Below, piece after piece: positions 4,027-39,268 of a DNA stretch of 64,000 nucleotides. The stretch spans positions 21,193 to 85,192 of the forward strand of contig CANRET010000003.1 in the NCBI GenBank assembly GCA_947629715.1, in the 5' to 3' direction. Below the pieces are notes generated by a model. That model saw only the letters and a program-made list of their open reading frames with translations. It was not told where the DNA came from and ran no database searches. Numbering within the stretch: position 1 is the first letter of the stretch; every line of letters begins with the position of its first letter. The position numbers and the translations under genes are program-made. The DNA comes from an uncultured Akkermansia sp. (lineage in GTDB: Bacteria; Verrucomicrobiota; Verrucomicrobiia; Verrucomicrobiales; Akkermansiaceae).

Positions 4027-4032
4027 GTGGAT

Positions 4033-5184
4033 ATGTGCAAGGGGCAGCCAAATGAAGGGGAAGCGACCTCTTTCTCCGCACCGCCGGAGGTGGAGGAGCC
4101 TGCCTACCTGTCCCGGCAAATCATCACATGCCTGGGCAACAAGCGCGCGTTGCTTGCTCCCATTTTGAAGACTGTCGAATATGTCAAGGAGCAATTGGGG
4201 AGGGATAAAATCAGCTGCTTGGATCTTTTTTCCGGCTCCGGCATTGTGTCGCGCGCGTTCAAGGCTTACGCAACGGACCTGTTCAGCAACGATTTGGAGT
4301 CTTATGCGCGTGTCATCAACGAATGCTATTTAGCGAATCCGTCGGATGTGGAGAGCAGTCGCATGCACGCTTTGCACAAGGAGCTGGAGAAACGTGTGGA
4401 AGAGGAGTTGAGTCCCGGTTTTATCACGCGTCTGTACGCTCCTCAGCATGATGACGAGATACAGCCCGGGGAACGCGTCTTTTACACGCGCCGCAACGCC
4501 ATGTATCTGGATACGGCGCGGAGGCTTATTGATGAGATTGTGCCGAGGCGCATGAAGCCTTTTTTTGTTGCTCCGTTACTCTATGAGGCGTCGGTGCACA
4601 CCAACACGTCCGGCGTGTTCAAGGGCTTCTACAAAAATAAGCGAGGGATAGGTCAATTTGGCGGAACGGGACGCAATGCGCTGGGGAGAATCATGGCAGA
4701 TATCAAGCTTCATCTGCCGGTGTTTTCGCGCTTTGAAACTCGGAATCACATCTACCGCCAAGATGCCCGGGAACTGCATACTCACCTGCCGATGCTTGAC
4801 TTTGCTTATTTGGATCCGCCGTACAATCAGCATCCCTACGGATCCAATTACTTTATGTTGAATTTGCTCACGGATTACTATGAGCCCCGGGAGATTTCGG
4901 CGGTGTCGGGCATCCCATACGATTGGAATCGCTCGGTGTTCAACAAGGCGCCCCTTGCGCGCGCGGCGATTCTTGAGACCATCGCCAATTGCCCTGCCAG
5001 GTTCATCTTGCTTTCCTACAATTCGGAGGGATTTGTGTCGCGGGAGGAACTGTGCGATTTCATGCAGGACCTGGGGGAGTTGTCTGTCATGGAAACATCC
5101 TACACCACCTTTCGCGCGTCGCGCAACCTGAGCAACCGCCCTCTGCATGTACGCGAGCGTTTCTTTTTACTGAAACGTCAATAA
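4033..5184 (+). CDS. N6-adenine DNA methyltransferase (D12 class; M.NlaIII/M.HpyI-like architecture), orphan
   Basis: LGNKRALL, DLFSGSGIVS (motif I), YLDPPYN (motif IV), LSYNSEG; no endonuclease ORF adjacent. Confidence 0.9.
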   Translation: MCKGQPNEGEATSFSAPPEVEEPAYLSRQIITCLGNKRALLAPILKTVEYVKEQLGRDKISCLDLFSGSGIVSRAFKAYATDLFSNDLESYARVINECYLANPSDVESSRMHALHKELEKRVEEELSPGFITRLYAPQHDDEIQPGERVFYTRRNAMYLDTARRLIDEIVPRRMKPFFVAPLLYEASVHTNTSGVFKGFYKNKRGIGQFGGTGRNALGRIMADIKLHLPVFSRFETRNHIYRQDARELHTHLPMLDFAYLDPPYNQHPYGSNYFMLNLLTDYYEPREISAVSGIPYDWNRSVFNKAPLARAAILETIANCPARFILLSYNSEGFVSREELCDFMQDLGELSVMETSYTTFRASRNLSNRPLHVRERFFLLKRQ

Positions 5185-19927: not shown

Positions 19928-21874
19928 TCAGGCTCGCGATGACTTGCTTCTCCTTTCGCAATCCTGCAACAGGCTCTTCCAGAGCGAATCGATGCCGGCG
20001 GCAACGCTCTCCTTGGCTGAGTCTTGATCTGTGCCGGGTAAACCGTGTGCGAAGAGATAAAACTTGATTTTCGGTTCCGTGCCGCTGGGACGCACTGCAA
20101 AGCTGCGACCGTCCGCCAAGTCCAGGATGAGCAGATTCTCGGCCGGCACAGGGTCTCCCTCGGCATCTTTCATGATGCCGAGGGAAAAGTCTCGCACATT
20201 CACCACCGGCGAGCCATCCATTTCAGTAGGGGGCGCGGAGATGAAGCTCTCGGTAAGCGCGGCGATCTTCGCAGCTCCGTCGGCGCCTTCCATGACGAGG
20301 CTCTTCCCAACTTCCAGATGGTAGCCGAATTGAGCGTACAGAGAGTTGAGGAGCTCGAGCAGACCGATGCTGCGCGATGACAGGTAGGCGTTCAACTCCG
20401 CAAGGCAGAGGGCCGCAGCATTGGCGTCCTTGTCGCGTACGAAATCCTGAGCCAGATAGCCGTAGCTTTCCTCGCCGCCGAAAACGAAGTACTTGCTGTG
20501 CTGCAGACGGAGCGAGCGAGAAGTCGCTTCATCCAAATTGCGGTAGTCGGCGCGGAGATGTTCCGGGATGCGATGCTCGTACTTCCCGAGCTTGGCGGCT
20601 ATGTACTTGAAGCCCGTGAGGACATTGACCGTGGCGATGCCGAAACTCGCTGCGATGGCATCCTGCAGAGGGCTCGTCACATACGTCTTCACCATCACGG
20701 CGTGCGCTTCATTTTCAGGTGTCACAATGCCCAGTTCGCGCATGCTCATGCAGCGGTACCACGCCAGCAAGCAGCCCGTCTGATTCCCGGTGAGCAATTG
20801 CATTTTCCCAGTCGCCTTGTCACGAACTGCGATGCCCATGCGATCGCTGTCCGGATCCGTGGCAATCACCAGATCCGCCTGCTCGGCGTCAGCTTGGGCA
20901 ATCGCCATATCCAGCGCAGGCGCGTTTTCGGGGTTGGGACTCTGAACTGTCGGGAAACGTCCGTCCTGCACATCCTGTGCGGCTACCGTACTCACCCGAC
21001 AACCGATTTCACGCAACAACGGCACAATGCAACGCTTGCCCGTGCCGTGCAGATTGGTGTAAACAACCTTTGCAGAACTCCTCTGAAAGACCTCCGGTCG
21101 CAAAATGATGCTCTTGAGCTTTGCCATGAAGCGTGCGTCCATATCGCTGCCCAGCTCGAACAGTTTCCCGCGTTCGCTTTCCGGCAAGGGTTCGTACGTA
21201 TCGCTCTCCAGTGCATTGACCTCGGCAATCACTCCTTCATCGTGCGGTGGCACGAGTTGGGCGCCGTCGTTGAAATAAGCCTTAAACCCATTGTCGTGGG
21301 CAGGATTGTGGGAGGCGGTAATGACCACGCCCGTGTCGGCGTTGAGTTCGCGGATGGCGAAGGAAACCTCCGGCGTGGAGCAGGGACCGTCAAAGAGCGC
21401 GCAATCACAGCCCAAATCCGTGGCGATTTTTGCACACTGCTCTGCAAAGGAGCGAGAGAAATGGCGAGTATCATGTCCCACCACAATGAGCGGTTTCCTC
21501 TCGCCGACGAACTTGCGCACGTACGTGATAAGACCTCGCATCGCGCGCCCCACGTTAAAAAAGTTCATGCAAGCCGTGCCGATGCAGGGGAACTCCGGAC
21601 GTCCGTTTTCGCCGCCTTTCCCTTGTTCTGCTCGGGTGACCGCAGCACCGATGGTGCGACCTCGAAGTCCGCCGGTCCCGAATGCAAGCGACTTGAAAAA
21701 TCTGTTGTTGAGTTCCGCCCAATTATTGGCATCGATGAGCTCGCCCACGGCTGCGGGAGCAACAGGATCCTTCGTCCCTTTCAGCAGGTGTTTTATATTC
21801 CGCAGTGATGATTCCTGAAGGCATCCGTTTGCCACTGCTTGCTCCATGACTTTGATTTCTTGTTCACTCAACAT
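19928..21874 (-). CDS. pgm: Phosphoglucomutase/phosphomannomutase
   Basis: FGTGGLRG, ITASHNP (phosphoserine), DPDSDR, GFKYI, GGEESYG, RPSGTEPKIKFY. Confidence 0.93.
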   Translation of the reverse strand: MLSEQEIKVMEQAVANGCLQESSLRNIKHLLKGTKDPVAPAAVGELIDANNWAELNNRFFKSLAFGTGGLRGRTIGAAVTRAEQGKGGENGRPEFPCIGTACMNFFNVGRAMRGLITYVRKFVGERKPLIVVGHDTRHFSRSFAEQCAKIATDLGCDCALFDGPCSTPEVSFAIRELNADTGVVITASHNPAHDNGFKAYFNDGAQLVPPHDEGVIAEVNALESDTYEPLPESERGKLFELGSDMDARFMAKLKSIILRPEVFQRSSAKVVYTNLHGTGKRCIVPLLREIGCRVSTVAAQDVQDGRFPTVQSPNPENAPALDMAIAQADAEQADLVIATDPDSDRMGIAVRDKATGKMQLLTGNQTGCLLAWYRCMSMRELGIVTPENEAHAVMVKTYVTSPLQDAIAASFGIATVNVLTGFKYIAAKLGKYEHRIPEHLRADYRNLDEATSRSLRLQHSKYFVFGGEESYGYLAQDFVRDKDANAAALCLAELNAYLSSRSIGLLELLNSLYAQFGYHLEVGKSLVMEGADGAAKIAALTESFISAPPTEMDGSPVVNVRDFSLGIMKDAEGDPVPAENLLILDLADGRSFAVRPSGTEPKIKFYLFAHGLPGTDQDSAKESVAAGIDSLWKSLLQDCERRSKSSRA

Positions 21875-21884
21875 GACGCCACGC

Positions 21885-21913
21885 ATTGTAGCACTTTTCC
21901 CCTCTCTTAGCAA
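21885..21913 (-). promoter_or_regulatory. Sigma70 promoter of pgm (near-leaderless)
   Basis: TTGCTA-N17-TACAAT with extended TG, 10 nt before ATG 21874. Confidence 0.6.
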
Positions 21914-22046
21914 GCGAGACAGCATGGATGCATTCCCCATGTATGCGTTGCTCGCGATTGACGACATGCGTTCGGAAGCCAAGTCAAGCCCAACCTGAGC
22001 AGTGTCCCTTTCTTTCTCTCGTCGCTTTTGTTATCCCCGGGGTGTG

Positions 22047-22215
22047 CGTATTTGGAATACGTATGTCAAGCCCATATTTGATAATTTTTCTTTTTCTTTC
22101 CAATGACTTATCGGAAGCAGGGATCGCATTACGCACAAAAAATTCCCTTGAAACGGTTTCATATATTCATCATTATCAATATCTTAGATATGCTCAGGTA
22201 CGTATTCCAAATACG
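22047..22215. promoter_or_regulatory. Candidate invertible promoter (inverton): 17-bp perfect inverted repeats flanking 135 bp
   Basis: CGTATTTGGAATACGTA (22047-22063) is the exact reverse complement of TACGTATTCCAAATACG (22199-22215). The interior is AT-rich with promoter elements and lies upstream of an autotransporter. Confidence 0.7.
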
Positions 22216-22292
22216 TACCCTTTCCGCAGAGCAGTGGTGACGAAGATTTCGATTCGCCGTTGCTTTCTCACAAACTAATTTCACCACATACT

Positions 22293-25200
22293 ATGAAACT
22301 ACATTTACCGATTGCGTTGTTCACGGCTCTTATGGCGGTGATGACTGCGTTACCTTCTTTCGCCGATGTCACTGTGAAGAAGGGAGAAGAATCCGTGGAA
22401 CTGACAGAATACGAGGAATCCGAAAGAGGCGCCAAGGGGTATTCTTATGATTTCGGAACGGTGACGGACGGTGTCACCATCACCATCACCGGGGAGGGGG
22501 AATACAGCGAATTCAAGCTGGGGGAAGGGACAACTCAACTCGGGGGCAATACGGTTATCGATGTCACGGGGAAATGCTACTGGGAAGGGAAGGGGAGCTC
22601 CTATGCTGTTCTTGCCTATAACGGTGGCAGCGCCACCATCGATGTGCATGACGGAGGCCTGTTTGTCAACAACGGATATATAGCTTGGCACAATGATGGC
22701 AAGTCCCAAACTACAGCGACCATCAACATCTATGATGGGGGGAGACTTCAAGATGGCAAAAACGGATCTTATGCCCACAACAAGGGCGATCAGGTGACGA
22801 TCAATGTGAAGGAAGGGGGGACTCTGAGCAGTAGCTGTACCTATGCCAACAACGGAGAAGTTACAATTAATGTCGAGGGCGGTAGTGTTGAGACAGGCCG
22901 TAGTGACACTAGATATGCCTATAGTTCCGATGGGCATATTATCGTCAACGTGAGCGGTGTGGGTGAGACTGAAGGAGTTGTTGATTTTCGTGATATAGGA
23001 AGTATGGCGTGCAATGGAAAGGCGACGATAGCCGTAAACGATGGCGGTGTTCTCAAGATAGGGGAAGCCACCATGGGGCGTAATTCCGGGAGTTATGTTT
23101 CCCTCACGGTAAACAAGGGAGGAAGAGTAGAAATAAGTCATGAGTCTCCGCGCAATGGATGTCGATTTACGTACGAGACGGGTTCAACTGCTGACATAAT
23201 CATCAATGGGGGCGAATTTATTGGACAAAATGTAAACTACGGCGATGCTGGTCATAAGACCAGAGCAGGTTCTTCGCACATTATCGTCAAAAATGGAGGA
23301 TTCTATCGTGAGGCGGGAGATGATGCCAGTTTCGTCAATGTAACCATCGATGTGCAAGGCAGTGACAGTGTCTTTGAGTTGCATGATTCAGGTTACAGCA
23401 ATAGCGCCTATGCAAATTTTACAAATTGCGAGATCAATGTCGATGGCGGTACGTTCAAGTTCACGAGTGAGGACGCGGATGAGCATCCGAGGGCAGAAAT
23501 TAAGGATTCAAATCGGTTTGTGCTGAGCAATGGAGGAACCATCGAGATTGGTCAAGCGTTTGTTGATGCTTCCTATAGCTACGATTGGATGATTAACCCG
23601 AATCTGACGATCAAGGGCGGGAACTTGGTCAATGCACAAAAAATGTCAGGGGATTGCACGATCAACATCGACAGTGGTTACACCGGCGTCAATAGTCTCG
23701 GAGGACTGCTTCCTGAGCATATCACAGAATTCAAGGTGAACGGTGCGAACACGTGGTTTGATGAGATTGGCGATGGCACGATCACCCTGCAGGGAGGCGA
23801 CAGCATCACGCTGGGAGCGTCGAGTGTGTGGGTAAAAGGATCTGAAGAAGGAGCAGATTCGAGGCACGCTGCTTTTCAATTCGTGACTCCCGGCAAAGGA
23901 AAGGTGAATGTTGACGGTCAATTTGTGCTTAATCTTGATGGAAGAGCAATATCCTTCACAGAAGACGGCGAATTCACGATCGAGGTCTTCCTCACGAACG
24001 GCAATTTAGCGGGACAGGGAGAGGACTGGGCGAAGGAGCATTTTGCGGTCGGAACAGGTTGGGGACTGACCGTGAGTAGATATAATGCAGAGAAGGGTAC
24101 ACTTACTTTGACCGGCCAGTTCAATGTGTGGGATGCTGTGCAGGATGGTGATTCCGATCATACTGGTCATGCATCTGCCAATGCCAGTGATCTTGTCCAT
24201 TACGACAAAGTAATCATCGATGAGGAAACCGCGCTCACAGCTGATGGGAATGCAACCCTCAAGCAGCTTCAGGGGGACGGGGAGGATTCTGAACTCACCA
24301 TTACCAATAACACTCCCGAGAGTCCAAAGGAGCTCACTCTGCACAACGAGGACACAGCTTCGGTGAATGGCTCCGGAGATACGCGCTTTGCCGGTGACAT
24401 CACGGTCAATGAGGGAGTGGATCTGAAGAAAACGGGCGATGCGGAATTTGCGATAGAAGGCGACCTGAGCACCAGAGGTGGCGTCACCGTGGATGAAGGG
24501 ACGCTCGCATTCGGGAAGAAGAGCAAGAGCTCTATCGATGGCGGGCTTTCCATTAGCGATGGCGCTGAGCTGCAGGTGGATGGAAGCCTCACGCTCAAGG
24601 GTGAAAGTGATCTTTCCGAAAGCGAAGGACAGCTCTCCGGGGAAGGCGATATCACCGTAGGCAATGGCGGCAGCCTGACGCTGGGAGGAAATACCCTTGC
24701 AGGTGATCATGACCTGAGCTTCGATGTCGAGAAAGGAGGCACGCTCAGTTTCAAGGGAGAAAACTCCAACTTCTCCGGCAACATCACGGGCGAGGGTACG
24801 GTCTCCACGGAGGGAACGATCAAACTCACGGAAGATGGTTCGCTCACAGGAGACGACAGCTCGGGCAAGTTCCTGGCAAGTGGTTCGGAACGCACCTTCG
24901 GGGGGGACAATGGAGAAGCTGACATCGGTGCGACGGATGGCGCTAAGGTCACTCTCCAAGCCGGTTCGACTTTCAAGTCTCTGGATGCCGAGGTGGGCGG
25001 TGACAAGGGCGGCAACACCTACACCTTTACCGGCAAAGATGCTGAGGGGAGCACGACCAGACATTTCTCCGGCGACATCGTGCTGCGCAGCGGCAACGAG
25101 TACGACATGGAGCTGGATCTGAGCAACCCGGCGCTTTGGGAGGGGAGTGGCCAGCATAAGGAAACTCTCATACTGGATACCCAGAGGAACATCATTATCG

Positions 25201-26723
25201 AAGATGGAGCCACCATCGTCTTGAACAGCATCGATAATTTGGTTGCGAAGCAAGGAGATCTTACGGGAGTTGTGCTGATGCAGGGCAAAGGCATTTTCCA
25301 TGAGAGCTATTTACGGTACAAAGGCGAAGGGGATGAGCATGAGAAAACCTTGGGGCCCGTGAATGGAGTCAACGTCAAGTTGGGAGGCATCTTGGATCTG
25401 CTCTACGAAAGAGCCGAGTTGCAGATTGTAGAAGCAGACGGTGGAGCGAGTGCGGCGAACGAACTCATCGCACTCGCTGAAGTTGAGCCCAGGGATGGTG
25501 CGACCTACGATACCATCGTCAATTTCTATCACCGCACACAGAGCAAGTTTGCTCCATACGCAACAAGCGCCAACTCCATTGCCGGTTCCAACCTGCTGTG
25601 GTTTGAGGCCGACCAGAAGGGCGTCACTATGGACGAAAGTGTGCTAGCCGTGATGAGCAGTTTGCAGCAGATGGCGGATGCAGGCGACGCGGCAGGCGTG
25701 CGCAAGGCGCTCGCGGCCGTGGCGGGCAGCACGCTGACCTCGCTCTCCGCCGCTCAGAGCGCGGCCCTGCGCAACCAGGAGAGCCGTGTGCGCGACCACG
25801 CTCTGCAGGCCGCACGTTTGCGCTGCCAGGGCAACGACGAGACAACGCAGCAGCAGCGTCCCTGCAAGACCACCCACGTTTGGGTGGAAGGCACGAGCTT
25901 CTTCTCTGAGCAGCACAGCCGTGGCGACGAGAGCGGCTATCGCCTCAACAGCTGGGGAGGGGCCGTGGGTCTCGATGCGCAGGTGGACGCGCACTGGAGC
26001 GTTGGACTGAGCCTAGCCGCCAACTACGGCGATCTCGAAGCGCGCGCCGCCGACTACGCCAAGGGCGACCTGGACAGCTTCTACGTGAGCGCATGGAGTC
26101 AGGCGAAGAACGCTCGTTGGGGCAACACGCTGCTCTTCACCCTGGGCACGAATGAGGCCAATCTCAGGCGCACGGTAAACTATGGAAGCGGCAGCTACAC
26201 GGCCACGAGCAGCACGAGCGGCAGCAGTCTGGGAGCGATGTGGGAACTCACCTACGACTTCTATCCGGTGAAGGAGAACAGGAGCAACGTCATCCAGCCG
26301 CTCTTCAACGTGATCGTGCAGCACACGAGCATGGACGGCTTCAGTGAGAAGAATGCGGGAGGCGTGGGTCTTACCACGGAGAAGCAGACGCGCGACACGA
26401 TGACGCTGGCGCTGGGCTTGCGTTGGCTGGCGGCGATTGAGAGCGGCAAGGCAGCCAATCGCACGGTGACGACCGAGCTGCACGCGAATGTGGCGCAGGA
26501 CATGGGCGACCGCCGGAGTGAGGCGAACGTGGCGCTGCTGGCCAACCCGAACTACACGCAGAGCGTGTACGGGGCGCGCGCAGGCAGCACGGCGTTCCAG
26601 TTCGGAGCGGGAGTGAACGTGCCGGTGACGGCGAACTCGCAGCTTTATGTGAACGCGGGCGGCGAACTGCGCAGCCACGCGAACGCATGGAACGCCGCAC
26701 TGGGCGTTCGGATGGGCTTCTGA
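22293..26723 (+). CDS. Type Va autotransporter (beta-helical passenger plus beta-barrel)
   Basis: MKLHLPIALF signal peptide; repeated xxIxVxxGG rungs; one PATR-like repeat (LKKTGDAEF...VDEGTL); C-terminal barrel ending GVRMGF. Confidence 0.93.
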   Translation: MKLHLPIALFTALMAVMTALPSFADVTVKKGEESVELTEYEESERGAKGYSYDFGTVTDGVTITITGEGEYSEFKLGEGTTQLGGNTVIDVTGKCYWEGKGSSYAVLAYNGGSATIDVHDGGLFVNNGYIAWHNDGKSQTTATINIYDGGRLQDGKNGSYAHNKGDQVTINVKEGGTLSSSCTYANNGEVTINVEGGSVETGRSDTRYAYSSDGHIIVNVSGVGETEGVVDFRDIGSMACNGKATIAVNDGGVLKIGEATMGRNSGSYVSLTVNKGGRVEISHESPRNGCRFTYETGSTADIIINGGEFIGQNVNYGDAGHKTRAGSSHIIVKNGGFYREAGDDASFVNVTIDVQGSDSVFELHDSGYSNSAYANFTNCEINVDGGTFKFTSEDADEHPRAEIKDSNRFVLSNGGTIEIGQAFVDASYSYDWMINPNLTIKGGNLVNAQKMSGDCTINIDSGYTGVNSLGGLLPEHITEFKVNGANTWFDEIGDGTITLQGGDSITLGASSVWVKGSEEGADSRHAAFQFVTPGKGKVNVDGQFVLNLDGRAISFTEDGEFTIEVFLTNGNLAGQGEDWAKEHFAVGTGWGLTVSRYNAEKGTLTLTGQFNVWDAVQDGDSDHTGHASANASDLVHYDKVIIDEETALTADGNATLKQLQGDGEDSELTITNNTPESPKELTLHNEDTASVNGSGDTRFAGDITVNEGVDLKKTGDAEFAIEGDLSTRGGVTVDEGTLAFGKKSKSSIDGGLSISDGAELQVDGSLTLKGESDLSESEGQLSGEGDITVGNGGSLTLGGNTLAGDHDLSFDVEKGGTLSFKGENSNFSGNITGEGTVSTEGTIKLTEDGSLTGDDSSGKFLASGSERTFGGDNGEADIGATDGAKVTLQAGSTFKSLDAEVGGDKGGNTYTFTGKDAEGSTTRHFSGDIVLRSGNEYDMELDLSNPALWEGSGQHKETLILDTQRNIIIEDGATIVLNSIDNLVAKQGDLTGVVLMQGKGIFHESYLRYKGEGDEHEKTLGPVNGVNVKLGGILDLLYERAELQIVEADGGASAANELIALAEVEPRDGATYDTIVNFYHRTQSKFAPYATSANSIAGSNLLWFEADQKGVTMDESVLAVMSSLQQMADAGDAAGVRKALAAVAGSTLTSLSAAQSAALRNQESRVRDHALQAARLRCQGNDETTQQQRPCKTTHVWVEGTSFFSEQHSRGDESGYRLNSWGGAVGLDAQVDAHWSVGLSLAANYGDLEARAADYAKGDLDSFYVSAWSQAKNARWGNTLLFTLGTNEANLRRTVNYGSGSYTATSSTSGSSLGAMWELTYDFYPVKENRSNVIQPLFNVIVQHTSMDGFSEKNAGGVGLTTEKQTRDTMTLALGLRWLAAIESGKAANRTVTTELHANVAQDMGDRRSEANVALLANPNYTQSVYGARAGSTAFQFGAGVNVPVTANSQLYVNAGGELRSHANAWNAALGVRMGF

Positions 26724-35188: not shown

Positions 35189-37396
35189 ATGGATCCGATA
35201 TACTACGTTATTTACGGGACGCTTCTGCTTTTGTCCGTATTCGGGTTAAAGGTAGGTGTGAGCAATGATGCGGCGAACTTTTTAAACTCATCGCTTGGAT
35301 GTCGCGCCGGATCATTTTACGCTGTTGCAGCGGTGGCGGCGCTCGGTGTGTTGCTGGGCGCCAGCTTTTCCAGCGGGATGATGGAAGTTGCACGCAGTGG
35401 TGTGTTCAACCCGCGCATGTTCAATTTTCATGAGGTAATGCTCTTATTTTTGGCGGTGATGATTTCCAACGTCATCCTGCTTGATGTGTACAATACACTC
35501 GGCTTGCCCACATCGACTACGATATCGCTCGTGTTTGCGTTGCTGGGATCCTCTATCGGCATGGCAGTGTACAGCAAGGATATGGCCACGGATGATGCGC
35601 CATTGGCTGTTTATATTAACACGAGCAATGCATTCGCTATCGTTGTGGCTATCTTTGTTTCGGTGGTTATCGCCTTCACGCTCGGTTCCGCCATCATGTG
35701 GTTTGCGCGTTTGCTTTTCAGCTTCCACTACACTCGTGCCTACAGGTACATTGGTCCTCTGTGGAGTGGATCAGCGCTCACCGCCATTACCTATTTTGCC
35801 GTTTTCAAGGGTCTTAAAGACAGCTCCATGCTTTCTTCGGAGATGAAGGAAGCGTTGAATGCTGACGTAGGAGCAACGATGACATGGTGTTGGGTGGCAT
35901 GGTTAGCGATCATGGCGTTTTTGCAATATGTGTGCCGCGTAAATACACTGAGAATAGCGGTGCTGAGCGGAACAGGCGCTTTGGCGCTGGCGTTTGCCGG
36001 CAATGATCTGGTGAACTTCATAGGCGTGTTTATGGCGGCGCAGACGAGCATGGATATTGCTGCCAATCACGTGGGTGATGTGTCGGGGATGATGATGAGC
36101 GAGTTGGCAGATACGGCTATTCAAGCCAATCCACTTTATTTACTTACAGCCGGGCTTATCATGGTAGCGTCGCTCTTTCTCTCCAAGAATGCGCGCAAGG
36201 TGACGGAAACGGAGCTCAAACTCTCCTCTGCCAACACAGGCAAGGAACGGTTCGGTTCCAGTTTGGCGGCTCGTGTGATGGTTCGCTATGCGCTCAATAC
36301 TGCCCGCTTCATTGAACGCATTACGCCCGAACCCATCGCTCGCTTTGTAGGAAATCGCTTTGCGCCGCTCTCGCCGGAGGAGGAAACGGGCGCCAACTAC
36401 GACTTGGTGCGTGGTTCGGTAAACTTGACGACAGCCGCGCTTCTCATTTCCATTGCCACGTCCATGAAGATGCCGCTCTCTACGACTTACGTCACCTTTA
36501 TGGTGGCCATGGGGTCTTCGTTGGCGGATCGAGCATGGGGACGCGATAGCGCGGTGTACCGCATTACCGGTGTGCTCACGGTGACAGGAGGCTGGTTTTT
36601 GACTGCCATCGGTGCGTGCTTGGCGTCTTTTTTGGTGGCGTTGGCATTGTCGTACGGCGGTGTATGGACGCAGTATGGCATGATTGTTTTGGCGCTTGCC
36701 CTCTTGGCGCGCTCCACCTTCCTGGCGCACAGCGACAAGCAGGAGTACAAACTGCTGGATGTGCGTAAGGATTCCCAAGTGTACGAGTATGGCGCTGCCG
36801 CCGCGGGGCGTCTCGGGCGTATGGTCGGCATCTACAATGCCATGGTCAAGGCGTTGTTGGTGGAGGATCGAGATTCGCTGAAAAGGCTGCGCAAGAAGGC
36901 TCGCTCCATTAAGCAAGATCTCAAGCTTGTCAAGGAGAATGAGGTCTTGCCCACACTCGCTTCTATCCCGAAAGATCAGGCGGATCGAGGACAGCTCATT
37001 TTCCGCATTGTCGAGATATCCATTTCCACTTGTGATTGTTTGGTCACGCTTGTGAAGGCTGCTTACAACCACATTGACAATAATCACACCGGATTGAACG
37101 ATGACCAGGCGAAAGATCTGCTGGCTCTCACCGGCAAAATCGGACGCTTCTACCCGAATATTTTGGATATGCTCAAGGCAGGTGATTACGTTGGCATTGA
37201 TAAATTGCTCACCGGAAGTGAGGAGTTGGGACAAGAGTTTGCGGATTTCATTACGCGGCATCTTATGCAAAACGCCTCGGATGAAAGCGGCATGCGCACG
37301 GGTATTCTTTACCTAACGCTTCTCAATGAAACGCGTGCCATGGTGAGCCACGCTTTCGCCCTTATCCGCTGCATTGAGGAACTCTACAAGGGGTGA
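35189..37396 (+). CDS. PiT-family inorganic phosphate transporter with C-terminal helical (PhoU-like) domain
   Basis: GVSNDAANF, LPTSTT, FAGNDLVNF, PLSTTYV repeated PiT motifs. Confidence 0.88.
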   Translation: MDPIYYVIYGTLLLLSVFGLKVGVSNDAANFLNSSLGCRAGSFYAVAAVAALGVLLGASFSSGMMEVARSGVFNPRMFNFHEVMLLFLAVMISNVILLDVYNTLGLPTSTTISLVFALLGSSIGMAVYSKDMATDDAPLAVYINTSNAFAIVVAIFVSVVIAFTLGSAIMWFARLLFSFHYTRAYRYIGPLWSGSALTAITYFAVFKGLKDSSMLSSEMKEALNADVGATMTWCWVAWLAIMAFLQYVCRVNTLRIAVLSGTGALALAFAGNDLVNFIGVFMAAQTSMDIAANHVGDVSGMMMSELADTAIQANPLYLLTAGLIMVASLFLSKNARKVTETELKLSSANTGKERFGSSLAARVMVRYALNTARFIERITPEPIARFVGNRFAPLSPEEETGANYDLVRGSVNLTTAALLISIATSMKMPLSTTYVTFMVAMGSSLADRAWGRDSAVYRITGVLTVTGGWFLTAIGACLASFLVALALSYGGVWTQYGMIVLALALLARSTFLAHSDKQEYKLLDVRKDSQVYEYGAAAAGRLGRMVGIYNAMVKALLVEDRDSLKRLRKKARSIKQDLKLVKENEVLPTLASIPKDQADRGQLIFRIVEISISTCDCLVTLVKAAYNHIDNNHTGLNDDQAKDLLALTGKIGRFYPNILDMLKAGDYVGIDKLLTGSEELGQEFADFITRHLMQNASDESGMRTGILYLTLLNETRAMVSHAFALIRCIEELYKG

Positions 37397-38181
37397 TTGC
37401 CGACAGAAGAAAGGTCACCGGTAACGATGCGACGGAAGAAAGCATCGGCCTCTGCGCTATCCGGAGGGGAGGGGAAGGGAAGAGCCTCTATTTGTCGGCG
37501 CAGTGTGGCCATCTCGCGTTGAATGTAGGAGAGAGCTTCAGGGATGGGAGCGCCGTACGCTTTCTCCACATTCCCAGTGCGGAGGGTGAGCAATTCATTC
37601 ACCGTACCTTGCATGTCGCGAGGAAGCATTGCTGCACATAGATCGGAAAAAAGCATGGGCGCAGGAGTATGCTCTTTTAATACCCAGCGAGCTGCCAGCA
37701 GCGGGCGAATAGCATAGAAATATTCTTTGTATATGGGCTTTGCAACAGTCAGGTAACGTTTGTAGGAGCTGTCGGCCATGCCCAGGTAGCGCGAGGCCAG
37801 TCGCACGGGCTGCATGAGGCGACGGGTTACTGCACGAAACTCCTCCAGCCACGGAGATGTGCGGTAAACGATGGGAGAGTCGGCCCATTCGAAGACGCTG
37901 ATATTGGAGCGCAACGCGAGAAGGAGAGTCTTGCGTAAGTCCCAACCTTTGATGTCGTACACCTCGTTGAGTTCCCACTCGATCGTATCCCGAAGAGGAA
38001 GAATGCCCAGGTATTTCTCCCGCGGGTGCACGTAGATGCAGCGAACATCATAGTCACTTGTTTCGGAGGGAAAGCCCCAGGCACGACTGCCGGATTCAGC
38101 GGCGAAGATGATCTGACAGGCGTGTGTCGCTTCCAGCGAGGAGAGTTTGGCGAGTATTTGATCAGTGATGCTCAGATTCAT
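37384..38181 (-). CDS. Pol-beta superfamily nucleotidyltransferase (PF10127 RlaP/YcgL-like)
   Basis: ESGSRAWGFPSETSDYDVRCIY, GWDLRK, EWADSPIVY, KEYFYAIRP. Confidence 0.88.
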   Translation of the reverse strand: MNLSITDQILAKLSSLEATHACQIIFAAESGSRAWGFPSETSDYDVRCIYVHPREKYLGILPLRDTIEWELNEVYDIKGWDLRKTLLLALRSNISVFEWADSPIVYRTSPWLEEFRAVTRRLMQPVRLASRYLGMADSSYKRYLTVAKPIYKEYFYAIRPLLAARWVLKEHTPAPMLFSDLCAAMLPRDMQGTVNELLTLRTGNVEKAYGAPIPEALSYIQREMATLRRQIEALPFPSPPDSAEADAFFRRIVTGDLSSVGNHPL

Positions 38182-39268
38182 TGTGACGAAGAATGCGAAG
38201 TTGGGCGAGATCACGCTTCCAATCACCAAGTTGAGGGGTATCCGGGAGCGTTGATTTTTCAAAGAGGGATTTCATGTCGGCAATTTCGCATTGTACAAGC
38301 TGCAATGCCTCAGAGAAGGGTATTCGCCCGGCGCGAATATCGCGCAGCAGTGCATTATCGTACGTGCGCTGCACATGGATACGACCTTCGGTGGCAATTT
38401 CACGAGCTGTGTGGAGAAGGCGCAGCACGTGCATCATGTGCTTGGTGTCGTAGTTCCCTTCATCGGCAGGAAGTTTTTTATCCGTTTGCAGACGTGTTTT
38501 ATTACGTTTTTCCTGCCACTCGTGGTACTGAGCGATTGTGCGGCAGTGAGCGGCGTATGCCATAGTGTCCACCTGCATGCAGGCAAGGAAGGTCGATGCT
38601 GCATTGATGGCGGGGCATGCCACATTCGTGCCATCTCGTCCGAATAAACCGACAGGGTTGGTTTGGCGGTAGAGCGCCCACACATTCTGCTCCATCGGTC
38701 TGGCAGCAATATCTTTCCAGGTGAGTCCCGCCGTTCCCATCCACTTGATTAGCGGTTCCGTATTTTCGCGGTTGAGCACCCGAGCAAAATCTGCCAATGT
38801 TGCAGGGGCAGGGGGAGTCATGGTTGCCTTGTTATGCGTAGCGTGTATTCGCTTCAGCTGCGCAAGCGCATTGCCGACATAGGTCTTCGCACATACTTTT
38901 GAGAGGGGGTGACGACCGACAAAAAAGCGCGTGAGCCACTCGGCGCAATAGAGCTGTTGGCGTTGCCCCATGCAGGCCCAGAGCTCCAAAGCGCCGCTAT
39001 TATTGAGCTCAAGTTGACGGAGAAACTCGCCGAGCTCGGTGTATTGCCTATCGTGCGTGGAATCCTGCACAACCTTAGGAGCACAACCGGAGAGGACATC
39101 CTCTAGGCGTGCCATGTAAACCCCTTTGAAATCGTCATCGCTTGTTGGTGTATCCAAGCCGTATGCCCTGCTGCCGGCTACGCAGGAGAGACATATCAGG
39201 GGACGAATGTTGTGGACGTCATACTGCACGCAGTTCCCGATTTCAATCGTCTTTCCAGTCCACTTCAA
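38162..39268 (-). CDS. Pol-beta superfamily nucleotidyltransferase (PF10127 RlaP-like, long form)
   Basis: AGSRAYGLDTPTSDDDFKGVY, ELGEF, YDTKHMMHVLRLL; exact start uncertain. Confidence 0.88.
   Translation of the reverse strand: MKWTGKTIEIGNCVQYDVHNIRPLICLSCVAGSRAYGLDTPTSDDDFKGVYMARLEDVLSGCAPKVVQDSTHDRQYTELGEFLRQLELNNSGALELWACMGQRQQLYCAEWLTRFFVGRHPLSKVCAKTYVGNALAQLKRIHATHNKATMTPPAPATLADFARVLNRENTEPLIKWMGTAGLTWKDIAARPMEQNVWALYRQTNPVGLFGRDGTNVACPAINAASTFLACMQVDTMAYAAHCRTIAQYHEWQEKRNKTRLQTDKKLPADEGNYDTKHMMHVLRLLHTAREIATEGRIHVQRTYDNALLRDIRAGRIPFSEALQLVQCEIADMKSLFEKSTLPDTPQLGDWKRDLAQLRILRHNESEHH

What the first reader, a model, noticed from the sequence alone, without database searches (positions are those of the whole stretch)
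22047..22215. Candidate phase-variation inverton controlling a surface autotransporter
Seen: perfect 17-bp inverted repeats 135 bp apart in the only long AT-rich intergenic region, ending 77 nt before the autotransporter ATG. Each repeat is itself a dyad with an asymmetric 3-nt centre (CGTATT-tgg-AATACG; GGTACGTATT-cca-AATACGTACC), the layout of recombinase sites in inverted orientation. Established: intergenic invertons switch surface structures in gut bacteria. No recombinase is encoded in this window, so it would act in trans. Alternative: two operators for a dimeric repressor.
Basis: partly seen in the sequence, partly recalled or inferred. Interest (0 to 1): 0.88.

Follow-up and report, generated by a model that had tools for sequence, protein, structure and literature searches.

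The report
Akkermansia promoter inverton, OFF state
This is very probably a real flip-switch of a kind already known in the gut bacterium Akkermansia: a 135-bp DNA segment, here from a rabbit-gut species, that carries half of a promoter and is parked in the orientation predicted to keep a large surface autotransporter gene off.

Summary
Perfect 17-nt inverted repeats lie at 22047-22063 and 22199-22215. Each is a dyad around an asymmetric 3-nt centre (TGG / CCA). The second repeat ends 77 nt before the autotransporter ATG, and this is the only such repeat in the window.

The window comes from an uncultured rabbit-gut Akkermansia. At least 17 complete copies of the same ~170-bp element occur in related genomes, nearly all in front of 'MKLHLP...' autotransporter-like genes.

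The element appears to be a split promoter. A -35 box (TTGACA) with an A/T tract sits just inside one repeat. A -10 box (TAnnnT; here TACCCT, 22216-22221) sits just outside the gene-proximal repeat. The 17-bp recombination site is the promoter spacer. In the window the -35 sits at the far end and points away from the gene, which I read as OFF.

One family member (L012) is found in both orientations in public rabbit-gut assemblies, with 100% identical sequence. The window's own locus shows only one orientation in the contigs of 12 runs.

Human A. muciniphila invertons (motif CGGATT..AATCCG) have the same anatomy; here the arms are CGTATT/AATACG.

No recombinase is encoded in the window. An Akkermansiaceae tyrosine-recombinase family has an inverton of this class directly before its gene in all nine loci examined, so it is the candidate invertase.

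Verdict: a new member of a known kind.

The parts
22047..22063 (.). Gene-distal recombination site (IRL), CGTATT-TGG-AATACG plus TA. Dyad arms around the asymmetric centre TGG (22053-22055).
   Evidence: The same 15-nt core occurs in all family copies.
22064..22198 (.). Invertible inner segment, 135 bp. It is 70-80% identical between family copies, while the two sites are almost invariant.
   Evidence: The homologous segment of copy L012 is found in both orientations.
22064..22069 (-). -35 hexamer TTGACA, read on the minus strand. It lies just inside the distal site and at present points away from the autotransporter, towards a non-promoter hexamer (CACACC, 22046-22041).
   Evidence: GGCTTGACATA is conserved next to one site in 16 of 17 copies. 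In the flipped copy L012 it forms TTGACG-17-TAAACT, the only promoter-like hit there.
22070..22101 (-). A/T-rich tract upstream of the -35 on the minus strand. It looks like an UP element and is conserved as tTGaAaA..AAAAAtTTTCAAAT in the family.
   Evidence: Alignment. The functional reading is inference.
22174..22186 (+). TATCAATATCTTA, a 9/9 match to the IHF-type consensus WATCARNNNNTTR. It ends 12 nt before the gene-proximal 17-mer and is a putative DNA-bending site for synapsis of a 135-bp loop.
   Evidence: a match of at least 8/9 at exactly this position and strand in 13 of 17 copies, with the N positions varying; 3% in shuffles. Binding is not tested.
22199..22215 (.). Gene-proximal recombination site (IRR), TA plus CGTATT-CCA-AATACG, centre CCA (22207-22209). 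In the ON state it would be the 17-bp promoter spacer.
22216..22221 (+). Fixed -10 hexamer TACCCT (TAnnnT), immediately outside the proximal site.
   Evidence: TAnnnT directly follows the core on the gene-proximal side in 15 of 17 copies, plus 2 copies offset by 1 nt. It follows 0 of 15 flanks beyond the -35 end of OFF copies.
22222..22292 (+). Predicted 5' leader of the autotransporter mRNA. The transcription start is expected near 22228-22230 in the ON state.
   Evidence: Inference from promoter geometry. No RNA run was available.
22293..26723 (+). Regulated gene: a 1476-aa autotransporter. It has the signal peptide MKLHLPIALFTALMAVMTALPSFA, an uncharacterised passenger domain, and a C-terminal beta-barrel at residues 1196-1455.
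   Evidence: PF03797, E=1.9e-37. NCBIfam matches only the barrel. Paralogues with the same N-terminus follow the other copies.

Best explanation
The element is a promoter inverton of the Akkermansia type, caught in its OFF orientation.

Proposed mechanism:
- A site-specific tyrosine recombinase encoded elsewhere in the genome binds the two dyad-symmetric 15-19-bp sites (arms CGTATT / AATACG).
- The asymmetric 3-bp centres (TGG / CCA) give the sites opposite polarity and must match between partners. Recombination therefore inverts the 135-bp segment between them.
- The segment carries only the upstream half of a sigma-70-type promoter: an A/T tract plus the -35 TTGACA, abutting one site. The -10 (TACCCT, 22216-22221) is fixed outside the gene-proximal site.
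- After inversion the -35 lands exactly 17 bp from the -10, with the recombination site itself as spacer. The 1476-aa autotransporter is then transcribed.
- In the orientation present in the window the -35 faces the PGM gene across a hexamer (CACACC) that is not a -10, so the autotransporter is predicted to be silent.
- An IHF-like site inside the segment probably helps bend the short loop.

Shown: the repeats; the multi-copy family; the conserved placement of the promoter halves; inversion of a sister copy; the same anatomy in A. muciniphila invertons; and linkage of a tyrosine-recombinase family to invertons of this class.

Inferred: inversion of this particular copy; the ON/OFF assignment; the identity of the invertase; and the role of IHF.
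For: - Repeats and uniqueness.
- Organism and family: 22 of 45 exact 17-mer hits in 185,579 species genomes are rabbit-gut Akkermansia MAGs, and nearly all are pairs 152-157 nt apart.
- Downstream genes: mostly MKLHLP autotransporter-like proteins starting 38-105 nt after the site.
- Split promoter: GGCTTGACATA inside one site. TAnnnT lies outside the gene-proximal site in 15 of 17 copies (+2 offset by 1 nt) against 0 of 15 at the other flank.
- ON copies: in L012 the inner segment is flipped relative to its gene, giving TTGACG-17-TAAACT, the only promoter-like hit there. L004 faces an OMP beta-barrel gene with TTGACA-17-TATCAT.
- Direct inversion at L012: run X19 keeps the MAG orientation at both junctions. 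Run X23 has a 224-nt contig joining the gene-side flank to the other end of the inner segment with 0 mismatches. Run X25 has a 989-nt contig with both flanks on one strand and the inner segment on the other; the joints are 'opposite strands' and share 21 letters.
- Centre covariation: TGG/CCA, TAC/GTA (L023b), TAT/ATA (L046, an allele of this very locus), TCA/TGA (L182).
- Known class: A. muciniphila has about 32 invertons of one IR group, with 17-nt IRs, near autotransporter and PEP-CTERM genes, and the motif CGGATT..AATCCG (PMC11892184 and PMC13343947).
- My scan of that motif found the same geometry (TTGACn-n-15mer-n-TAnnnn, spacer 17), locus-specific centres that are reverse complements within a pair, and the same inner segment with swapped flanks in different samples (L066/L083, L099+L104/L111, L096/L098).
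- Candidate invertase: a PF00589 protein abuts the L001 inverton. It has 1417 homologues. All nine fetched loci carry an inverton-class IR pair ending 0-27 nt before the recombinase ATG. R204, K231, R286, H309 and Y319 are invariant.
Against: - The window locus shows only the assembled orientation in Logan contigs of 12 rabbit-gut runs, some at 140-310x depth. A sister locus, L023a, behaves the same way in 4 runs. Contigs discard minority variants and no raw reads or RNA were available, so this is weak evidence, but it allows a copy that rarely or never flips.
- The -10 TACCCT matches TATAAT only at the three key positions.
- A weak promoter-like match inside the segment (TTGAAA-17-CATTAT, 22148-22176) faces the gene in the present orientation, so OFF may be leaky, or my ON/OFF labels could be too simple.
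- The arms differ from the published A. muciniphila motif at one base pair per half-site.
- The recombinase allele linked to CGTATT-type sites (P0001 clade) is at 5x in run X11, where the window's strain is at 314x. The window strain's own enzyme has therefore not been identified.
Confidence: 0.8

Rival explanations
1. Locked or decaying inverton. The element descends from the inverton family, but this copy no longer inverts at a meaningful rate, and the autotransporter is constitutively silent or driven by another promoter.
For: Only one orientation appears in the contigs of 12 runs. In assemblies 15 of 17 family copies sit in the same OFF-like state. A weak internal promoter-like match faces the gene.
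Against: Both sites are perfect, and their centres remain exact reverse complements. An allele of this same locus (L046) has changed both centres together to TAT/ATA, which argues for ongoing selection for recombination competence. The -35, the -10 and the 17-bp spacing are intact. Contigs cannot exclude minority orientations.
Confidence: 0.1
2. Two operators for a dimeric transcription factor, which loops or represses the autotransporter promoter without any DNA rearrangement.
For: Each site is a dyad of the size a dimeric regulator would bind, and two sites about 150 bp apart could support looping.
Against: It does not explain why the asymmetric centres always covary as reverse complements. 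It does not explain why the inner segment of L012, and of the A. muciniphila relatives, is found in both orientations between fixed flanks. It also does not explain why the -35 sits at the wrong end in most copies.
Confidence: 0.03
3. A miniature transposable element (MITE) or a REPIN-like repeat pair, whose terminal inverted repeats happen to lie before the gene.
For: It is a multi-copy element of about 170 bp with terminal inverted repeats. Depth over the element is many-fold above the flanks in metagenomes.
Against: No target-site duplication flanks it (CCGGGG... against ...CCTTTC). Copies always sit at a fixed distance and polarity in front of genes, with a conserved -10 outside the element. 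The ends are invariant while the interior has diverged to 70-80% identity, the reverse of young MITE copies. No transposase signature was found, and flipping occurs in place.
Confidence: 0.03
4. A structured RNA or DNA hairpin. The two repeats pair with each other in a transcript, as a long-range 17-bp stem, to control termination or stability.
For: Covariation of the centres would also preserve a stem between the two sites.
Against: A long-range stem would not require each site to be self-palindromic. No terminator-like feature was found. It does not explain the flipped copies or the recombinase linkage.
Confidence: 0.02

Closest known systems
Akkermansia muciniphila intergenic invertons (IR motif of Jiang et al. 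2019; 'inverton group 138' of PMC11892184; the cps1 inverton of PMC13343947)
   Same: - 17-nt IRs built on a 15-nt dyad with a 3-nt asymmetric centre.
- An inner segment of 130-160 bp.
- A -35 just inside one IR and a -10 just outside the other, with the spacer kept at 17 bp.
- Centres that are reverse complements within a pair.
- Targets are surface proteins, including autotransporters.
- The recombinase is not adjacent to most copies.

   Different: - The arms are CGTATT/AATACG instead of CGGATT/AATCCG, one symmetric base-pair change per half-site.
- The promoter boxes sit 1 nt differently relative to the core (TTGACA-TA-core-TAnnnT against TTGACn-n-core-n-TAnnnn).
- The host is an uncultured rabbit-gut Akkermansia.
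- A conserved IHF-like motif is present in the rabbit copies but not in the A. muciniphila-type copies.
Bacteroides fragilis promoter invertons controlled globally by the Mpi recombinase
   Same: One genome holds many promoter invertons with a shared IR motif in front of surface-structure genes, and they are flipped in trans by a recombinase encoded elsewhere. It works like this system.
   Different: Mpi is a serine recombinase, and the Bacteroides promoter lies wholly inside the invertible DNA. Here the linked candidate is a tyrosine recombinase. The site has an odd 3-bp centre, and the promoter is split across the recombination site.
E. coli fimS switch (FimB/FimE tyrosine recombinases, IHF-dependent)
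   Same: A short invertible promoter element, tyrosine recombinases encoded next to a switch, and a likely need for DNA bending (IHF-like motif).
   Different: fimS is 314 bp with 9-bp IRs and carries a complete promoter. It is a single local switch. Here the system is multi-copy, acts in trans, and the -10 is outside the invertible DNA.

Membership tests
Akkermansia-type promoter inverton | Two short inverted repeats (about 17 nt) flanking an intergenic segment of about 130-160 bp | tested here: met
   17-nt perfect IRs with a 135-bp inner segment. The published example has 17-nt IRs 174 nt apart start to start.
Akkermansia-type promoter inverton | IR motif CGGATT..AATCCG, as published for A. 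muciniphila | tested here: inconclusive
   Here the arms are CGTATT-NNN-AATACG. The layout is the same, with one symmetric substitution per arm. Sites next to the linked recombinase genes carry G, A or T at that position (CGGATT, CGAATT, CGTATT), so the class motif looks degenerate there. No CGGATT-type site occurs in 244 kb of rabbit loci (the sample is biased).
Akkermansia-type promoter inverton | The 3-nt centres of the two sites are reverse complements of each other and differ between loci | tested here: met
   TGG/CCA here. TAT/ATA in the L046 allele, TAC/GTA in L023b, TCA/TGA in L182. There are many centres in the A. muciniphila-type set, always reverse complements within a pair.
Akkermansia-type promoter inverton | Both orientations are present in sequence data of one locus | tested here: inconclusive
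   Window locus: one orientation only, in the contigs of 12 runs; no raw reads were available. Sister copy L012: both orientations, including a junction with 0 mismatches.
Akkermansia-type promoter inverton | A promoter element on the invertible DNA drives the adjacent gene in one orientation only | tested here: met
   At sequence level only. The -35 TTGACA lies inside, the -10 TACCCT outside, and the spacing would be 17 bp after inversion. The pattern is conserved across 17 copies and realised in L012 and L004. Transcription is not tested.
Akkermansia-type promoter inverton | Controls a cell-surface product | tested here: met
   Autotransporter with PF03797. Published neighbours are autotransporter and PEP-CTERM proteins.
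Akkermansia-type promoter inverton | A cognate site-specific recombinase is present in the genome | not testable with these tools
   None in the 64-kb window. The rest of this genome is not available. The candidate family was found in related genomes. Conserved catalytic segments of it reach depths similar to the window strain in run X11.
Serine-invertase switch (Hin/Gin/Mpi type) | A crossover site symmetric about a central 2-bp overlap, with a serine recombinase | tested here: not met
   The dyad axis runs through the middle base of an odd 3-nt centre. The only recombinase family linked to this class of site is PF00589, tyrosine type. No resolvase was found in any locus by phmmer with a Hin sequence recalled from memory (a weak test).
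MITE / REPIN | Target-site duplication, near-identical whole copies, and insertion sites unrelated to gene starts | tested here: not met
   No duplication at the ends. The interior is 70-80% identical while the ends are invariant. Copies are always in front of a gene with a fixed -10 outside.

The most novel reading that the evidence does not exclude
Akkermansia-type invertons are split promoters: the -35 is mobile, the -10 is fixed, and the recombination site is the 17-bp spacer. Their locus-specific 3-bp centres act as addresses that keep dozens of same-armed sites from recombining with one another. Their so far unnamed invertase is a dedicated Akkermansiaceae tyrosine-recombinase family (~333 aa; R204-K231-R286-H309-Y319) in which each gene sits directly behind its own 'home' inverton. 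The rabbit-gut lineage has a paralogue (P0001 clade) whose home sites, like the autotransporter switches including this one, carry T-variant arms (CGTATT), which suggests that enzyme and site set switched specificity together.
Probability: 0.45. Interest if true: 0.6.

Novelty: new member of a known kind. Interest (0 to 1): 0.42.

Why it matters
Akkermansia is being developed as a probiotic, and its strains differ in how well they colonise. Phase-variable surface proteins are a likely reason.

This locus shows that the inverton system known from human A. muciniphila extends to rabbit-gut species, with an altered site sequence, and there governs a whole family of giant autotransporters.

The comparative work done here also gives three testable handles on the system as a whole:
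- A simple rule for reading ON or OFF from an assembly: which flank the TTGACA end touches.
- The suggestion that the 3-bp centre insulates the switches from one another.
- A concrete candidate for the invertase. The papers I could read on these invertons name no enzyme.

For the window itself the practical message is that the autotransporter is probably silent in the sequenced population.

Tried and rejected
- Exact-protein look-ups of the autotransporter and of two PGM start variants found nothing. Orthologous loci had to be reached through purA and by DNA pattern.
- The first metagenome scan, with the -35 plus the rabbit-type site, gave 0 hits; JGI metagenomes seem to lack these rabbit Akkermansia.
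- No RNA runs hold the gene, and all DNA runs are kept only as contigs. A PhaseFinder-type read count was therefore impossible.
- Same-strand 'skips' joints over the inner segment at first looked like short deletion forms. They are flagged 'between: not known' and fit paralogous copies that align only at the conserved ends. I rejected them as evidence of excision.
- phmmer with XerD and Hin sequences recalled from memory was only a lead. It gave one weak hit, which Pfam then confirmed.
- L182 could not be sent to read laying; L001 was used instead.
- The depth comparison did not tie the P0001-type recombinase allele to the window strain.
- The 64-aa Cys-rich ORF in the L001 insertion has no Pfam match, so I dropped my guess that it is an ISL3 remnant.
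- The IHF-like motif is not conserved in A. muciniphila-type copies, so I do not claim it for the whole class.
- The MITE, operator and RNA-stem readings were considered and rejected; see the rival explanations.

Full report
**1.
- The window carries CGTATTTGGAATACGTA at 22047-22063 and its exact reverse complement at 22199-22215. The match extends to 20 nt at 95%, and 135 nt lie between the arms.
- Each arm is a dyad around a 3-nt asymmetric centre: TGG at 22053-22055 and CCA at 22207-22209.
- The downstream ORF starts at ATG 22293, 77 nt after the repeat. It encodes a 1476-aa protein with a C-terminal autotransporter beta-domain (PF03797, E=1.9e-37).
- Upstream, on the other strand, lies a phosphoglucomutase/phosphomannomutase-family gene (19928-21874 or longer).
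- This is the only spaced perfect inverted repeat of 14 nt or more within 300 nt in the 64 kb; 19 of 20 shuffles had none.
- It lies in the lowest-G+C stretch of the window (0.37 against a mean of 0.546).
- No ORF of the window matches a tyrosine or serine recombinase.

**2. Organism and copy number.**
- Sequencing runs that hold the region are rabbit-gut metagenomes.
- An exact scan of 185,579 species genomes for the 17-mer returned 45 loci. Of these, 22 are uncultured Akkermansia MAGs from rabbit gut, covering seven species-level genomes. The rest are single hits in unrelated taxa, as chance predicts.
- In Akkermansia the hits are almost always pairs: a TGG site followed 152-157 nt later by a CCA site.
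- I collected 17 complete copies. Their inner segments are only 70-80% identical, while the sites are nearly invariant.
- In metagenome contigs, depth over the conserved ends is many times that of the flanks. Many contigs enter the element from different contexts exactly at 22045-22047.
- My scan fixed the centre as TGG, so the count is a lower bound. Other centres (TAC, TAT, TCA, GGC, GAC) turned up incidentally.

**3. Anatomy: a promoter split by the recombination site.**
- With all copies oriented alike, GGCTTGACATA abuts the inside of one site and is preceded by an A/T-rich tract.
- Outside the other, gene-proximal site the first six bases are TAnnnT in 15 of 17 copies, and in 2 more with a 1-nt offset. 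Examples are TACCCT in the window, TATAAT in L002 and TAAACT in L023a.
- The flank beyond the TTGACA end fits TAnnnT in 0 of 15 OFF copies (CACACC in the window).
- The gene that follows the -10 side is nearly always a giant protein beginning MKLHLP..., starting 38-105 nt further on.
- After inversion the -35 would lie exactly 17 bp from the -10, with the 17-bp site as the spacer.
- Two assemblies show this joined state:
  - L012 has TTGACG-17-TAAACT, then the ATG 38 nt on. It is the only promoter-like match in that region.
  - L004 has TTGACA-17-TATCAT in front of an outer-membrane beta-barrel gene.
- In the window the -35 (22069-22064, minus strand) sits at the far site and points towards PGM. 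PGM has its own promoter-like site, TTGCTA-17-TACAAT with a TG extension, at 21913-21885.
- I therefore read the window copy as OFF. This is an inference from sequence. A weak internal match (TTGAAA-17-CATTAT, 22148-22176) faces the gene, so OFF may be leaky.

**4. Does it flip?**
- For the sister copy L012 the answer is yes:
  - Run X19 has contigs with the MAG's orientation at both junctions.
  - Run X23 has a 224-nt contig that joins the gene-side flank to the opposite end of the inner segment with 0 mismatches.
  - Run X25 has a 989-nt contig, about 4% diverged, with both flanks on one strand and the inner 2706-2829 on the other. The joints are 'opposite strands' and share the 21 letters of the repeat.
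- For the window's own locus I found only the assembled orientation in the contigs of 12 runs, at depths up to about 310x. The sister locus L023a gave the same result in 4 runs.
- These are assembler contigs, which drop minority paths. No raw reads or RNA runs were available. The result limits the ON fraction to a minority but does not exclude flipping.
- A strain with the identical purA protein (L046) carries the same inner sequence with both centres changed together to TAT/ATA, and with a second autotransporter upstream instead of PGM.
- Concerted change of both centres is what a crossover region that must match between partners predicts.

**5. Comparison with what is known.**
- The literature describes many invertons in Akkermansia. 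PhaVa found the highest number of intergenic invertons per genome in Verrucomicrobia, which in that dataset were all Akkermansia (PMC10028968).
- A defined-community study found 32 A. muciniphila invertons in one IR group, with 17-nt IRs. One lies beside two autotransporter genes, and its orientation drifted across mouse generations (PMC11892184).
- The cps1 capsule inverton was verified experimentally. That paper quotes the IR motif of Jiang et al. as CGGATT..AATCCG (PMC13343947).
- I scanned metagenome contigs for CGGATTNNNAATCCG pairs 130-160 nt apart.
  - I set aside hits that look like tRNA or REP-type repeats.
  - The remaining 24 elements (18 distinct) show the same design: TTGACn, 1 nt, the 15-nt core, 1 nt, TAnnnn, again a 17-bp spacer.
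  - Centres differ from locus to locus but are always reverse complements within a pair.
  - Several loci appear in both orientations in different samples (L066/L083, L099+L104/L111, L096/L098).
- The window's element is thus the same kind of device with one symmetric base-pair change per arm (G to T, C to A).
- I saw no CGGATT-type site in 244 kb of rabbit loci and no CGTATT-type site in 891 kb of the other set. Both samples are ascertainment-biased.

**6. The enzyme.**
- While checking the other loci I found a 335-aa ORF that starts 25 nt beyond the TTGACA-side site of the L001 inverton. It is a Phage_integrase-family tyrosine recombinase (PF00589, 51 bits).
- It has 1417 homologues at E of 1e-10 or better. 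Most are about 333 aa and 53-65% identical, and one is labelled Akkermansiaceae.
- In every locus I fetched (L001, L182, L176-178, L179, L180-181, L130, L183, L184, L185), an inverton-class repeat pair with reverse-complementary centres ends 0-27 nt before the recombinase ATG.
- What lies on the other side of these 'home' invertons:
  - L182: an MKLHLP autotransporter, with CGTATT-type arms.
  - L180: a sugar-nucleotide/polysaccharide operon behind a perfect TATAAT.
- Both orientations occur among these home invertons. In L185 the element reads TTGACA-17-TATGAT away from the recombinase.
- R204, K231, R286, H309 and Y319 are invariant. An Asp replaces the usual first His of the HxxR motif.
- The nearest solved structure is an archaeal XerA, at only E=2e-5.
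- The odd 3-bp centre also fits a tyrosine enzyme with an odd-length overlap better than a serine invertase with a 2-bp overlap. That is my inference.
- This family is my candidate invertase. None of the papers I could read names one.
- I could not show which paralogue serves the window strain. The CGTATT-linked allele is at 5x in a run where the window strain is at 314x, although conserved catalytic segments reach 300-580x.

**7. A further conserved feature.** TATCAATATCTTA (22174-22186) matches the IHF-type consensus WATCARNNNNTTR at 9 of 9 positions. A match of at least 8/9 occurs at the same place and strand in 13 of 17 rabbit copies, with the N positions varying (3% in shuffles). A 135-bp loop needs bending to bring its ends together, so a bending-protein site is plausible. 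It is untested and is not conserved in the A. muciniphila-type copies.

**8. Verdict.**
- The repeat is real and non-random.
- The inverton reading is supported at family level by direct evidence, and at this locus by complete conservation of every functional part.
- The operator, MITE and RNA-stem readings fail to explain the flipped copies, the covarying centres or the gene-relative placement.
- The element is a new member of a known kind, not a new kind.
- My confidence in each step:
  - An Akkermansia-type inverton: about 0.88.
  - The split-promoter model and the OFF assignment: about 0.7.
  - This tyrosine-recombinase family as the invertase: about 0.65.
- Interest is moderate. It comes from the altered arm sequence, the split-promoter geometry, the centre 'addresses' and the invertase candidate.

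Noticed in passing
L001:5883-6890; also L176-L185 and L130:14197-14552: A tyrosine-recombinase family (PF00589, ~333 aa, 1417 homologues) has an inverton-class repeat pair 0-27 nt before its gene in all nine loci examined. It is the candidate invertase for Akkermansia-type invertons.
   Followed up: partly
L001:5420-5800: The inverton in L001 has a 600-nt inner segment because of an insertion. The inserted DNA reaches 400-1800x depth in runs where the flanks are 5-40x, so it is a high-copy repeat. It holds a 64-aa Cys-rich ORF with no Pfam match.
   Followed up: partly
window 22293-26723; L046:9811-17275; L023: The autotransporter genes are mosaic and sometimes tandem. A strain with the identical purA has a second autotransporter where the window has PGM. 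Many assemblies break in the 3' barrel region. Contigs switch to alternative N-terminal cassettes at about 22343 and 22688.
   Followed up: partly
L004:4719-5572: One family copy is assembled with its -35 end facing an outer-membrane beta-barrel protein gene (PF13505) across TTGACA-17-TATCAT. The switch family is therefore not restricted to autotransporters.
   Followed up: partly
window 21885-21913 (minus strand): The PGM-family gene has its own promoter-like site, TTGCTA-17-TACAAT with a TG extension, only about 10 nt before a possible ATG at 21874. This suggests a very short leader. The true start codon is uncertain; the ORF extends to 21982.
   Followed up: no
window 22148-22176: A weak promoter-like match, TTGAAA-17-CATTAT, lies inside the invertible segment and faces the autotransporter in the present orientation. 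It may be chance (0.8 such hits expected per region) or a basal promoter.
   Followed up: no
L056, L061-L063, L080, L087, L092, L094, L103, L105, L108, L109, L126, L156: Human-gut metagenome contigs carry a different repeat built on CGGATT-TGC/GCA-AATCCG inside TAGGCGTCCCGG...CCGTTAAAAAA blocks. It looks like a REP-type or tRNA-anticodon-arm-type repeat and is unrelated to the invertons. The organism is unknown.
   Followed up: no
window 4027-5181 and 37387-39268: A D12-class N6-adenine DNA methyltransferase (PF02086) and two adjacent RlaP-family (RNA-repair nucleotidyltransferase) ORFs.
   Followed up: no
L009:4949 and 5625: Two CGCATT-NNN-AATGCG dyads lie 676 nt apart, and their centres do not match. 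They may be chance or a third arm variant.
   Followed up: no
window about 22097-22109, and equivalent positions in L014, L023a, L041, L043, L044, L046: A second, weaker WTTCAAnnnnTTA motif recurs about 35 nt from the -35-side core in several copies. It may be a second bending site.
   Followed up: no
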